DNA from: a virus | Taxonomy: Duplodnaviria > Heunggongvirae > Uroviricota > Caudoviricetes | Direction: 5' to 3' (one strand) | DNA length: 7,019 nucleotides | IMG/VR virus record: IMGVR_UViG_2534681998_000017 | Coordinates: 1-7,019 of that record | Shown here: in pieces, positions 3,779-4,514 of the stretch | How positions within the stretch are numbered: position 1 is the stretch's first letter | Layout of the letters: each line of letters opens with the position of its first letter | Notes under the pieces: generated by a model | Told to the model about the DNA's origin: nothing | Databases searched by the model: none | The model's input: the letters and a program-made list of their open reading frames with translations, nothing else | Position numbers and translations under genes: made by a program

Positions 3779-3785
3779 ATGTACT

Positions 3786-4391
3786 CTATTTATACAATAC
3801 AACACCACTCTTTTTAGTTATATATGTGCAGTTTGATGGTATATCTTTATTTATAAAAGACATTGCACCTATTTTTACATTATCCCCAATTTTACGTGAT
3901 AATCCAATGATGCAACAATTAGCTCCGATATCAACGTTACTACCAATTTTTACTCTTGAACTAGGCATATCACCATCTATCTGTCCAATGGTAGTATTCT
4001 GTCGTAATACCAGATTTTCACCCGCATCAACAGCAAAATGAACAACAATTCCAGCATGATGGGGAATTGTCAACCCTTTTCCAATATTTGCGCCCAATCC
4101 TATTTCACAACCAAACTTGTTAATTATTTTACTGTTTAACTTTTTGGCTGCTTTCTTATGTAATTTATTACCATTAATATACATTTCGTTAGCCAACCGC
4201 CACCAGAAAAGGAAATTCCGGTTACGCTGCTTTTTCTCTCTTAAAAGCCTCCAGATATCCATACGTTTCCGCCGAATTACTTCATGTTTCCAGAAGTTTT
4301 TTAAATTAGTAGAGTTTCCAAATAAAACAAAGTGAATTGCCATTAAGTAAGATAGCACGATAATCTCCTTAATTATTATTTCAGACCACAC
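3786..4391 (-). CDS. hexapeptide-repeat (left-handed beta-helix) O-acetyltransferase, WcaB/CysE-like
   Basis: The ORF's C-terminal half, FGCEIGLGANIGKGLTIPHHAGIVVHFAVDAGENLVLRQNTTIGQIDGD...KIGSNVDIGANCCIIG...KIGDNVKIGAMSFINKDIP, has the hexapeptide periodicity and the H-x-x-G-I-V-V ... TIG core typical of serine-acetyltransferase-family enzymes such as CysE and WcaB. The gene is visibly AT-rich relative to its flanks (by eye, not computed). Start is ambiguous: ATG at 4391 has no Shine-Dalgarno, while GTG at 4358 sits 6 nt after a perfect AAGGAG (plus-strand 4365-4370). Stop TAG at 3786-3788. Confidence 0.75.
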   Translation of the reverse strand: MWSEIIIKEIIVLSYLMAIHFVLFGNSTNLKNFWKHEVIRRKRMDIWRLLREKKQRNRNFLFWWRLANEMYINGNKLHKKAAKKLNSKIINKFGCEIGLGANIGKGLTIPHHAGIVVHFAVDAGENLVLRQNTTIGQIDGDMPSSRVKIGSNVDIGANCCIIGLSRKIGDNVKIGAMSFINKDIPSNCTYITKKSGVVLYK

Positions 4392-4409
4392 ATGTTATAA
4401 GGTTAAGAG

Positions 4410-4438
4410 ATTATAAAATCCTGTTATTTGTTATTCAA
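4410..4438 (-). promoter_or_regulatory. candidate sigma70 promoter for the acetyltransferase gene
   Basis: Read on the minus strand: TTGAAT (plus 4433-4438), a 17-nt spacer, then TATAAT (plus 4410-4415). It lies 19-52 nt upstream of the candidate start codons. Sequence match only; no experimental support. Confidence 0.45.
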
Positions 4439-4514
4439 AAACAATTTTCTGAGAAGGACATACAACAGCAAGTCGCCAGTCACCTTCATCAGGAAATTGG
4501 CGACATACGTTAAA

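What the first reader, a model, noticed from the sequence alone, without database searches (positions are those of the whole stretch)
3780..4460. AT-rich moron encoding a WcaB/CysE-like O-acetyltransferase inserted between two convergent tail modules
A cassette of about 0.7 kb with base composition clearly different from the surrounding phage genes carries a single hexapeptide-repeat acetyltransferase. It has its own near-consensus sigma70 promoter (TTGAAT-17-TATAAT), a strong Shine-Dalgarno, and a bidirectional terminator: the classic architecture of a lysogenic-conversion moron expressed from the repressed prophage. Enzymes of this fold O-acetylate sugars or small hydroxylated substrates. 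Prophage-borne members (for example NeuO of the K1 phage CUS-3) alter capsule or O-antigen and thereby change phage and immune recognition. The N-terminal region of about 95 residues is very basic and does not obviously resemble the CysE N-domain, so substrate and function are open. Its position next to receptor-binding tail-fibre genes fits a surface-modification or superinfection-exclusion role.
Basis: partly seen in the sequence, partly recalled or inferred. Interest (0 to 1): 0.7.

Follow-up and report, generated by a model that had tools for sequence, protein, structure and literature searches.

The report
Prophage acetyltransferase cargo beside tail fibres
A small, AT-rich, self-contained gene for an acetyl-transferring enzyme sits just after the tail-fibre genes of an E. 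coli O157:H7 prophage. It is real, conserved, mislabelled as a cysteine-pathway enzyme and most likely modifies the cell's lipopolysaccharide, but this kind of prophage cargo is already familiar.

Summary

The gene occupies the fun(Z) cargo site of P2-like phages. Sister prophages carry an invertible spare tail-fibre cassette there instead. In at least eight lineages (99% down to 45% identity) the gene lies tail-to-tail with a tail-fibre assembly gene. Relatives also sit beside LPS-core genes: inside a waa cluster, and next to waaZ, GT25, GT9, yibB/htrL and arn/ugd.

The best reading is a cytoplasmic acetyl-CoA-dependent O-acetyltransferase of LPS or another surface glycan, expressed as lysogenic-conversion cargo. 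Substrate and expression are inferred, not shown. No member of the family has been characterised. Novelty is modest: a new member of a known kind.

The parts
3164..3742 (+). Tail-fibre assembly gene (tfa, 192 aa). It is the conserved tail-to-tail neighbour of the acetyltransferase gene.
   Evidence: Pfam Caudo_TAP 6.4e-40. A convergent Tfa gene ends 22-99 nt from the acetyltransferase stop in 63 of 90 loci that have room for one.
3749..3778 (.). Shared hairpin between the two stop codons. It is an intrinsic terminator for the acetyltransferase transcript and a weaker one for tfa.
   Evidence: 13-bp stem followed by TTCTTTTTAT on the minus strand. RNA folds of -21.8 (minus) and -16.4 (plus) kcal/mol, z -6.2 and -5.8.
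3786..4358 (-). Acetyltransferase CDS, 190 aa, GTG start. SAT-fold left-handed beta-helix enzyme with catalytic Glu85 and His100.
   Evidence: The protein is identical to UniProt A0A0H3JG20_ECO57.
4365..4370 (-). Shine-Dalgarno AAGGAG, 6 nt before the GTG start.
   Evidence: Read from the sequence. Conserved in alleles L079 and L070.
4410..4438 (-). Candidate sigma-70 promoter TTGAAT-17-TATAAT.
   Evidence: 10 of 12 matches. Not conserved in related alleles. Function not shown.
4463..4512 (-). Stable hairpin just downstream of gpU. Probably the end of the FI-U late operon, which would insulate the cassette from late transcription.
   Evidence: -21.2 kcal/mol, z -4.95. The role is inferred.
4515..5009 (-). 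Tail protein gpU (164 aa), the right-hand flank of the cassette.
   Evidence: Pfam Phage_P2_GpU 1.5e-38. 46% identical to P2 gpU.
243..3164 (+). Tail-fibre gene (973 aa), a hybrid of a lambdoid Stf N-terminus and a fibre C-terminus of the type found in the P2-like prophage.
   Evidence: Pfam phage_tail_N, Phage_fiber_2 and Collar. Bases 1-2400 are 99.8% identical to a lambdoid prophage found elsewhere in O157:H7 genomes. From 1653 onwards the window matches the P2-like prophage.
5016..6718 (-). Tape-measure gene remnant, split into two overlapping ORFs and cut by an IS3-family element.

Best explanation
The cassette is swappable accessory cargo (a moron) at the distal end of the tail-fibre operon of a P2-like prophage, at the position that fun(Z) occupies in P2.

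Its single gene encodes a soluble enzyme that is probably trimeric and uses acetyl-CoA as donor. The enzyme has the serine-acetyltransferase architecture: five N-terminal helices plus a left-handed beta-helix. His100 would act as general base, polarised by Glu85.

The enzyme is not a serine acetyltransferase. Its most likely acceptor is a hydroxyl on a sugar of lipopolysaccharide, probably the core, or of another envelope glycan, while that glycan is still being built on the cytoplasmic face of the inner membrane. The very basic N-domain would hold the enzyme at that face. The gene would be transcribed on its own and ended by the hairpin it shares with tfa.

The expected result is lysogenic conversion: an altered surface that changes adsorption of LPS-binding phages and possibly recognition by the host.

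Shown: gene integrity, purifying selection, fold, retention of the catalytic pair, loss of the serine-binding residues, cargo status and the gene neighbourhoods.
Inferred: acetyl-CoA use, oligomeric state, membrane association, the acceptor, expression in the lysogen and the phenotype.
For: Real, selected gene:
- dN/dS is 0.04-0.16 against five alleles.
- It is present in 531 of 5426 complete E. coli genomes.

Fold:
- AlphaFold2 model with pLDDT 96.3.
- The family profile matches solved serine acetyltransferases at E 1e-25.

Catalytic pair:
- H100 is at least 90% conserved.
- It aligns with the His of the conserved D-H-A-T-G motif of solved serine acetyltransferases. I identify that His with CysE His158 from my own knowledge of E. 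coli numbering.
- E85 aligns with the acidic residue of the G-V-D-I-H-P motif, identified the same way as CysE Asp143. By my reading of the alignment, that position is always D or E in the family.

Cargo status:
- P2 has G(+), a terminator, fun(Z)(-), then FI(+).
- Homologues of 67% and 46% identity sit exactly there in phages with the P2 gene order.
- The same gpU lineage occurs in 1349 genomes.
- UTI89 and UTAK-3 carry a reverse-oriented tfa, a fibre C-terminal segment and a recombinase/invertase at the site instead.

Link to envelope glycans in independent contexts:
- Leminorella: waaI/O-like GT8, waaY, waaZ, homologue, then waaL on the opposite strand.
- Halomonas: waaZ next to a homologue.
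- Xenorhabdus prophage or tailocin: homologue plus Glyco_transf_25 next to the tail fibre.
- Morganella-type element: homologue plus Glyco_transf_9 (weak hit) next to the tail fibre.
- Phage contig L086: YibB/HtrL, above its equivalog cut-off, convergent with a homologue.
- Intestinirhabdus: next to ugd and arn genes.
- Pseudomonas: GT2, homologue, sugar dehydrogenase.

Other:
- The best NCBIfam hits are polysaccharide-type acetyltransferases (EpsC 76 bits, WcaB 55 bits) as well as CysE.
- The gene is tail-to-tail with Tfa in at least eight lineages.
Against: - No experiment bears on the substrate. All functional evidence is by association, and many homologues are orphans with unrelated neighbours (Rahnella, Erwinia, Pantoea, Obesumbacterium, Orbus).
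- The gene also occurs without any tail-fibre or LPS gene nearby: on EAF plasmids after bfp, in a Salmonella island, and at a prophage end after hok.
- Nearly identical alleles (97-99%) are paired with fibre C-termini only 46-100% identical to the window's. There is therefore no strict match between enzyme and fibre tip, and the Tfa linkage could be simple hitch-hiking in a recombination hotspot.
- To my knowledge no O-acetyl group has been reported on E. coli core oligosaccharides, including that of O157:H7 (own knowledge, not checked here).
- The gene occurs across many serotypes, so any target must be a conserved structure.
- The nearest solved relatives act on a small soluble substrate.
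- The promoter is not conserved among alleles.
Confidence: 0.5

Rival explanations
1. It is anti-phage or inter-element cargo with an intracellular target. The enzyme would acetylate a small molecule, a phage component or a host factor to block superinfecting phages, as fun(Z) does at the same site in P2. It would have nothing to do with surface glycans.
For: - It occupies the fun(Z) site, and the P2 record says the cloned fun(Z) gene blocks growth of T5.
- The hotspots of P2-like phages are reservoirs of defence genes (PMC9122126; bioRxiv 10.1101/2024.10.15.618418).
- It is a single-gene cargo on prophages, phage-plasmids, plasmids and islands, sometimes next to toxin-antitoxin genes: HicAB, a MazE-like antitoxin with a PIN protein, and hok.
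- The N-domain is very basic (pI 11.4).
Against: - No match to any of the 5027 PADLOC models.
- I found no described defence system built on this fold in the papers read.
- Relatives sit inside LPS-core and polysaccharide clusters, which this reading does not explain.
Confidence: 0.17
2. It is a genuine but short serine O-acetyltransferase. As an auxiliary metabolic gene it would make O-acetylserine and boost or deregulate cysteine synthesis in the lysogen.
For: - RefSeq, UniProt and phage records all name it so.
- The closest solved structures and folds are serine acetyltransferases.
- The catalytic pair is kept.
Against: - TIGR01172 cysE scores 62 bits against a cut-off of 211, and PRK11132 36 against 397.
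- The D-R-H-P loop of solved serine acetyltransferases aligns with S-S-R-V here. By my reading of the alignment, this loop varies in sequence and length across the family. The Asp before the catalytic His aligns with Pro99. From my own knowledge these are the serine-binding residues (Arg192, His193 and Asp157 in E. coli CysE).
- I see no counterpart of the D-P motif (Asp92-Pro93 of E. coli CysE, recalled from memory).
- The C-terminus ends in ...VLYK, not in the Ile that binds CysK (own knowledge of CysE).
- There is no Pfam SATase_N hit.
- Relatives sit among LPS and glycan genes rather than with cys genes.
Confidence: 0.07
3. It serves the virion. The enzyme would act on the tail fibre, on its assembly, or on a factor needed for host-range switching, which would explain its constant position next to tfa and inside the invertible segment of P1-like phages.
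For: - Tail-to-tail with Tfa in at least eight lineages, with Tfa and enzyme identity falling together (Spearman 0.87 over 63 loci, which are not independent).
- It lies between the two tfa genes in JL22.
- It replaces the spare fibre cassette in sister prophages.
Against: - It is transcribed against the fibre operon, with its own translation signals and terminator.
- Close homologues exist where there is no fibre gene at all.
- The fibre and Tfa genes function in many phages without it.
Confidence: 0.05
4. It is a detoxifying acetyltransferase for an antibiotic or another xenobiotic, like the Vat and CatB beta-helix enzymes.
For: - Same superfamily.
- Carried on mobile elements.
- One relative (L103) gave a weak Vat hit, E 6e-4.
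Against: - For the window protein the Vat model did not appear at E <= 0.01.
- The architecture is SAT-like with an N-terminal helical domain.
- It is not found in resistance-gene contexts.
Confidence: 0.04

Closest known systems
fun(Z) of phage P2, occupying 'moron position 2' between G and FI
   Same: Same site and same orientation: antisense, directly after the tail-fibre assembly gene and its terminator. Both are non-essential cargo of foreign composition (PMC3573123).
   Different: An unrelated protein. fun(Z) is a 1.6-kb gene that blocks T5, whereas this is a 0.57-kb acetyltransferase gene. In the window's phage lineage the FI-U block lies on the opposite strand, so the gene faces tfa and follows gpU.
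neaT of the P2-like prophage in E. coli CFT073 (PMC3573123)
   Same: An AT-rich (30% GC) single acyltransferase gene at the same G/FI site, oriented against the tail genes. It is nomadic among unrelated phages. It was shown to affect fitness in bacteraemia.
   Different: NeaT is an integral-membrane Acyl_transf_3 (PF01757) enzyme and is rare in E. coli. This protein is a soluble beta-helix enzyme present in about 10% of complete E. coli genomes.
Serine O-acetyltransferase CysE
   Different: Scores are far below the family cut-offs. It lacks the residues I identify as serine-binding, lacks a CysK-binding C-terminus, and its N-domain is shortened to 5 helices.
WcaB (colanic acid) and EpsC polysaccharide acetyltransferases
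   Same: Short SAT-like beta-helix enzymes of glycan pathways. They give the best NCBIfam matches (EpsC 76 bits, WcaB 54-55 bits).
   Different: Well below the equivalog cut-offs (150 and about 195 bits). The family has its own conserved N-terminal signature, F-W-W-R-L-A-N-E-M-Y.
NeuO of prophage CUS-3 (K1 capsule O-acetyltransferase)
   Same: A prophage-borne beta-helix O-acetyltransferase that causes lysogenic conversion.
Oac-type O-antigen acetylases of Sf6, phiV10 and D3
   Same: Phage-encoded acetylation of LPS as receptor masking, which is the proposed biological role.
   Different: Those are membrane Acyl_transf_3 enzymes that act on O-antigen (own knowledge; the phiV10 and Sf6 genes are listed as neaT homologues in PMC3573123). 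This one is a soluble cytoplasmic enzyme whose relatives sit with core-synthesis genes.

Membership tests
Left-handed beta-helix (hexapeptide-repeat) acyltransferase superfamily | Tandem imperfect hexapeptide repeats of the [LIV]-G-x4 type | tested here: met
   Repeats are in register through residues 83-190. Pfam Hexapep gives E 2.7e-5, although 24.1 bits is below the 27-bit cut-off.
Left-handed beta-helix (hexapeptide-repeat) acyltransferase superfamily | Left-handed parallel beta-helix fold | tested here: met
Left-handed beta-helix (hexapeptide-repeat) acyltransferase superfamily | Trimer with active sites at subunit interfaces, and use of an acyl-CoA or acyl-ACP donor | not testable with these tools
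   Only a monomer could be modelled, and no biochemistry was possible.
Serine O-acetyltransferase (CysE) | Score at or above the curated family cut-off | tested here: not met
   TIGR01172 62.3 bits against 210.65. PRK11132 36.4 against 397.
Serine O-acetyltransferase (CysE) | Catalytic His with its acidic partner (His158 and Asp143 in E. coli numbering, from my own knowledge) | tested here: met
   H100 aligns with the His of the D-H-A-T-G motif, and E85 with the acidic residue of the G-V-D-I-H-P motif. H100 is at least 90% conserved. By my reading of the alignment, position 85 is always D or E.
Serine O-acetyltransferase (CysE) | Serine/cysteine-binding residues (Asp92, Asp157, Arg192 and His193 in E. 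coli numbering, from my own knowledge) | tested here: not met
   The D-R-H-P loop aligns with S-S-R-V, and the Asp before the catalytic His aligns with Pro99. By my reading of the alignment, the loop varies in sequence and length across the family. I see no D-P motif.
Serine O-acetyltransferase (CysE) | Full SATase_N helical domain and a C-terminal tail ending in Ile that binds CysK | tested here: not met
   No SATase_N hit in Pfam. The N-domain has only 5 helices in 82 residues. The C-terminus is ...GVVLYK.
WcaB colanic-acid acetyltransferase and EpsC | Score at or above the equivalog cut-off | tested here: not met
   WcaB 54.1 against 194.65 and 55.2 against 196. EpsC 76 against 150.
WcaB colanic-acid acetyltransferase and EpsC | Location in the cognate polysaccharide gene cluster | tested here: not met
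   The window gene is solitary in a prophage. Only distant relatives lie in waa or glycan clusters.
NeuO-type phage capsule O-acetyltransferase | Phase-variable heptanucleotide repeat tract at the 5' end, and NeuD-family similarity | tested here: not met
Phage moron (accessory cargo cassette) | Base composition distinct from the flanking phage genes | tested here: met
   GC 0.338 against 0.538. GC3 0.288 against 0.42-0.56.
Phage moron (accessory cargo cassette) | Absent from, or replaced by other cargo in, closely related phages at the same junction | tested here: met
   gpU at 93% identity or more occurs in 1349 genomes, against 531 with the gene. UTI89 and UTAK-3 carry a spare fibre cassette plus an invertase at the site.
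Phage moron (accessory cargo cassette) | Own promoter and terminator | tested here: inconclusive
   The terminator hairpin is strong. The promoter-like site scores 10 of 12, but such sites are as frequent as in shuffles and the -10 element is not conserved in related alleles.
Phage moron (accessory cargo cassette) | Expressed from the repressed prophage | not testable with these tools
   Needs RNA-seq or a reporter fusion in a lysogen.
Known anti-phage defence systems (PADLOC-DB 2.0) | Match to any defence-protein model | tested here: not met
   No family matched at E <= 0.1.

The most novel reading that the evidence does not exclude
This family is a widespread prophage-borne O-acetyltransferase of the LPS core, carried by about one in ten E. 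coli genomes including O157:H7. It travels as a unit with tail-fibre and assembly-protein cassettes through P2-like phages, P1-like phage-plasmids and tailocin-like elements. The same mobile module would then carry both a receptor-binding device and an enzyme that masks LPS receptors. That would make core acetylation an unrecognised, mobile layer of phage resistance and surface variation in enterobacteria.
Probability: 0.3. Interest if true: 0.6.

Novelty: new member of a known kind. Interest (0 to 1): 0.4.

Why it matters
The gene is common: it is in 531 of 5426 complete E. coli genomes, in every O157:H7 genome listed among the best matches, and in P1-like phage-plasmids that also spread blaCTX-M-55. 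Databases uniformly give it a metabolic name that the sequence does not support. The one paper found that discusses it says the reason for its presence is unknown (PMC9603915).

If it acetylates LPS or another conserved envelope glycan, it would affect several things:
- phage susceptibility, which matters for phage therapy and phage typing of STEC;
- possibly serum or immune recognition;
- the reading of LPS structures that were determined after base treatment.

The conserved pairing with tail-fibre assembly genes and the recurrent LPS-core neighbours turn an anonymous annotation into a hypothesis that can be tested cheaply.

Tried and rejected
- PADLOC scan of the acetyltransferase, Tfa and the fibre found nothing.
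- Rfam found no RNA family in the cassette above its threshold. The sub-threshold hits at 3736-3885 are centred on the terminator hairpin and are chance-level.
- Tandem Repeats Finder found no NeuO-like repeat tract.
- The first AlphaFold run, with 40 sequences, gave a poor beta-helix (pLDDT about 50). Its Foldseek result was therefore treated only as a hint. It was replaced by a run with 107 sequences.
Only the first 14 or so loci were informative.
- I tested whether the DNA between the promoter and gpU is a relic of a reverse-oriented tfa. Two short inverted repeats match the tfa 5' region (3231-3250 with 4479-4498, and 3204-3220 with 4401-4417). Their order and spacing are wrong for an inverted gene copy, so I treat them as chance.
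- I first read the FI-U orientation as a defect. P2 gpD aligns over residues 15-384 in strain 55989, and whole-prophage contigs share the arrangement, so it may be normal for that phage lineage.
- Literature searches for this gene found only annotations: a Citrobacter rodentium prophage table, the JL22 discussion, and nothing in the P2 hotspot papers.
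Full report
**1. What is in the sequence**

It lies on the minus strand at 3786-4391 in the mechanical list. 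The probable start is GTG at 4358, which gives 190 aa. AAGGAG lies 6 nt upstream (4365-4370). P1-like alleles have ATG at the same codon, and RefSeq annotates the same 573-bp CDS in O157:H7.

The stretch between the flanking stop codons (3743-4514) has 33.8% GC against 53.8% for the rest of the window. The gene has GC3 of 0.288, against 0.42-0.56 for tfa, gpU, the fibre gene and the tape-measure gene.

A 13-bp hairpin at 3749-3778 lies between the two converging stop codons. It is stable on both strands (z about -6). Only the minus strand has a run of U after it, so it is a good terminator for the acetyltransferase transcript and a weaker one for tfa.

TTGAAT-17-TATAAT is present at 4438-4410 on the minus strand. 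Promoter-like sites are no more frequent in this AT-rich DNA than in shuffles (4 found, 3.4 expected). The -10 element is not kept in alleles that are 85-93% identical, and P1-like alleles have unrelated upstream DNA.

A second stable hairpin directly after gpU (4463-4512) could end the late tail operon before the cassette.

**2. What the protein is**

Sequence searches place the protein among left-handed beta-helix acetyltransferases, closest to the CysE/EpsC/WcaB group. Every score is far below the curated cut-off: EpsC 76 against 150, cysE 62 against 211, WcaB 54 against 195. It belongs to PHROG 2154, a family of unknown function (2.9e-87). It matches no PADLOC defence model.

The mapping to E. 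coli CysE residue numbers below rests on my own knowledge of that enzyme.
- His100 aligns with the catalytic His of the D-H-A-T-G motif (CysE His158). It is at least 90% conserved in the family.
- Glu85 aligns with the acidic residue of the G-V-D-I-H-P motif (CysE Asp143). By my reading of the alignment, that position is always D or E.
- The positions that bind serine in CysE are not kept. The D-R-H-P loop aligns with S-S-R-V, and by my reading that loop varies in both sequence and length across the family. The Asp before the catalytic His aligns with Pro99. I see no D-P motif. The C-terminus does not end in the Ile needed to bind CysK.

The database name 'serine O-acetyltransferase' is therefore probably wrong. 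The protein works like an acetyl-CoA-dependent O-acetyltransferase of the SAT fold, but it fails the membership tests for CysE, WcaB, EpsC and NeuO.

The gene is under strong purifying selection (dN/dS 0.04-0.16).

**3. Where it sits**

The window's right two-thirds come from a P2-like prophage. In O157:H7 and in strain 55989 this prophage lies next to the tRNA Leu-Cys-Gly genes and pgsA. The exact protein is UniProt A0A0H3JG20_ECO57. The gene occurs in 531 of 5426 complete E. coli genomes.

In phage P2 the order is H, G, terminator, fun(Z) on the opposite strand, then FI-FII-E-T-U-D. Two homologues sit exactly at the fun(Z) position in prophages with the P2 order, antisense between G and FI. 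One is 67% identical (IMG/VR locus L081); the other is 46% identical (Buttiauxella, L189). This is the 'moron position 2' described for P2-like phages. In CFT073 it holds neaT, an AT-rich membrane acyltransferase gene in the same orientation (PMC3573123).

In the window's lineage the FI-U block lies on the opposite strand, so the gene follows gpU and faces tfa. That accounts for the 'two convergent tail modules'. gpD is nearly full length in 55989, so this order may be normal for that phage group.

The gpU of this lineage is present in 1349 genomes. UTI89 and UTAK-3 carry, in place of the acetyltransferase, a reverse-oriented tfa, a fibre C-terminal segment and a recombinase/invertase, which together form an invertible host-range switch. 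This meets the key criterion for cargo: different inserts at one junction in otherwise similar phages. It also agrees with a published description of this hotspot as holding fibre swaps, invertases and other cargo (bioRxiv 10.1101/2024.10.15.618418).

In the P1-like phage-plasmids JL22 and Ro157c2YLVW the gene (90% DNA identity) lies between the two tfa genes, next to cin. Homology to the window stops at the start codon.

**4. Linkage to tail-fibre assembly genes**

Of 90 fetched loci with enough downstream sequence, 63 have a Tfa gene on the opposite strand ending 22-99 nt from the acetyltransferase stop. A further locus, L189, has a gap of 4 nt. This holds in at least eight lineages, at 97-99, 88-93, 85, 65-67, 63, 49, 46 and 45% identity. 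It includes contigs whose proteins resemble those of Orbaceae and Gilliamella.

Tfa identity to the window's Tfa falls in step with acetyltransferase identity (Spearman 0.87, n = 63; the loci are not independent). Fibre C-termini are much more mixed: 46-100% identical among loci whose acetyltransferase is 97-99% identical. The enzyme therefore travels with tfa rather than with a particular fibre tip.

The gene also exists with no adjacent tfa gene:
- on EAF plasmids after the bfp operon;
- beside an integrase in a Salmonella island;
- at a prophage end after hok, 1-5 kb downstream of that prophage's tail-fibre genes;
- as a chromosomal orphan.

It therefore acts on the cell, not on the virion.

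**5. Clues to the substrate**

Relatives are repeatedly next to genes for LPS synthesis.
- In Leminorella grimontii a 48%-identical homologue lies inside the core cluster. The order is a GT8 3-alpha-galactosyltransferase, WaaY, WaaZ, the homologue, then the O-antigen ligase on the other strand. The GT8 enzyme and WaaZ (TIGR04437) score above their equivalog cut-offs.
- In a Halomonas genome WaaZ is again the upstream neighbour.
- In Xenorhabdus bovienii a homologue and a family-25 glycosyltransferase sit together between an integrase and the tail-fibre and baseplate genes.
- In a Morganella-type element the partner is a family-9 glycosyltransferase, on a weak hit.
- In phage contig L086 a YibB/HtrL gene, above its equivalog cut-off, lies between tfa and the homologue.
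- In Intestinirhabdus the neighbours are ugd and arn genes.
- In a Pseudomonas the neighbours are a GT2 enzyme and a sugar dehydrogenase.

Many other homologues have uninformative neighbours. I did not see cys genes next to any homologue.

**6. Most likely mechanism**

I put about 0.5 on the following. The prophage expresses a soluble enzyme. The basic N-domain keeps it near the inner face of the membrane. There it transfers acetyl from acetyl-CoA to a hydroxyl of an LPS-core sugar, or of another conserved envelope glycan, during assembly. The altered surface changes adsorption of phages that use LPS.

Rivals are an intracellular anti-phage role like fun(Z) (0.17), a true serine acetyltransferase (0.07), a role in fibre biology (0.05) and drug detoxification (0.04).

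Weaknesses of the main reading:
- All functional evidence is by association.
- To my knowledge E. coli core structures have no reported O-acetyl groups.
- The enzyme is not matched to a particular fibre tip.
- The tfa linkage could be hitch-hiking in a recombination hotspot.

**7. Novelty and verdict**

The gene is annotated everywhere, and one paper has remarked on it as unexplained (PMC9603915). I found no characterised member. The kind of element is well known: an AT-rich acyltransferase moron at the P2 G/FI site.

What this work adds:
- The 'serine acetyltransferase' label is probably wrong.
- The gene is one of the alternative cargoes of a tail-fibre hotspot.
- It is linked to tfa across distant lineages.
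- Its relatives keep company with LPS-core genes.

I rate it a new member of a known kind, interest 0.4.

Noticed in passing
window 1-2400 and the junction near 1653: Bases 1-2400 (a lom remnant plus a lambdoid Stf N-terminus) are 99.8% identical to a lambdoid prophage. In complete O157:H7 genomes that prophage lies hundreds of kilobases from the P2-like prophage; in CP022689 it is at 4.570 Mb (+) against 4.111 Mb (-). No complete E. coli genome contains the whole window (best coverage 71%). The fibre gene therefore spans a recombination junction between two prophages, which means either a large inversion or an assembly chimera.
   Followed up: partly
window 3507-3705 (+): A full-length match to Rfam RF02111 'IS009' (191 bits against a gathering score of 117) lies wholly inside the 3' half of the tfa coding sequence. 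The family may model the conserved tfa 3' end rather than an independent small RNA.
   Followed up: no
window about 6709-7019: An IS3-family element (IS1203/IS629-like, with the ALIL frameshift pseudoknot at 6803-6919) abuts the tape-measure remnant. Compared with O157:H7 PV15-279, about 0.86 kb spanning the tape-measure/IS junction is missing (my coordinate arithmetic), so the IS left end is truncated too.
   Followed up: partly
window 5016-6718 (-): The tape-measure gene is split into two overlapping ORFs (5016-5852 and 5729-6718). This indicates a frameshift, so the prophage copy is defective.
   Followed up: no
L001 18554-19456 (O157:H7 PV15-279): A macro-domain protein gene sits between the tail-fibre gene and tfa in several O157:H7 and related prophages. 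It is absent from the window and from strain 55989.
   Followed up: no
L002 20842-27694 (E. coli 55989); L191 and L193: In this P2-like lineage the FI-FII-E-T-U block is on the opposite strand to D-ogr. A nearly full-length D is present (P2 D residues 15-384), although RefSeq annotates a shorter one. This suggests a stable alternative gene order rather than decay.
   Followed up: partly
window 3231-3250 with 4479-4498, and 3204-3220 with 4401-4417: Two short inverted repeats (82-85% complementary) link the 5' part of tfa with the DNA upstream of the acetyltransferase gene. One of them overlaps the -10 element. Their order does not fit a relic of an inverted tfa copy, so they are probably chance matches.
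   Followed up: partly
L103 4132-5519 and L112 4001-5384: A WaaZ (Kdo III transferase) gene lies directly upstream of the acetyltransferase homologue in two distant genera, Leminorella and Halomonas. This may point to the inner core as the site of action.
   Followed up: partly
L009-L013 (EAF-type plasmids): A 50%-identical homologue lies a few hundred bases downstream of the bundle-forming pilus (bfp) genes on EPEC plasmids, flanked by IS remnants.
   Followed up: no
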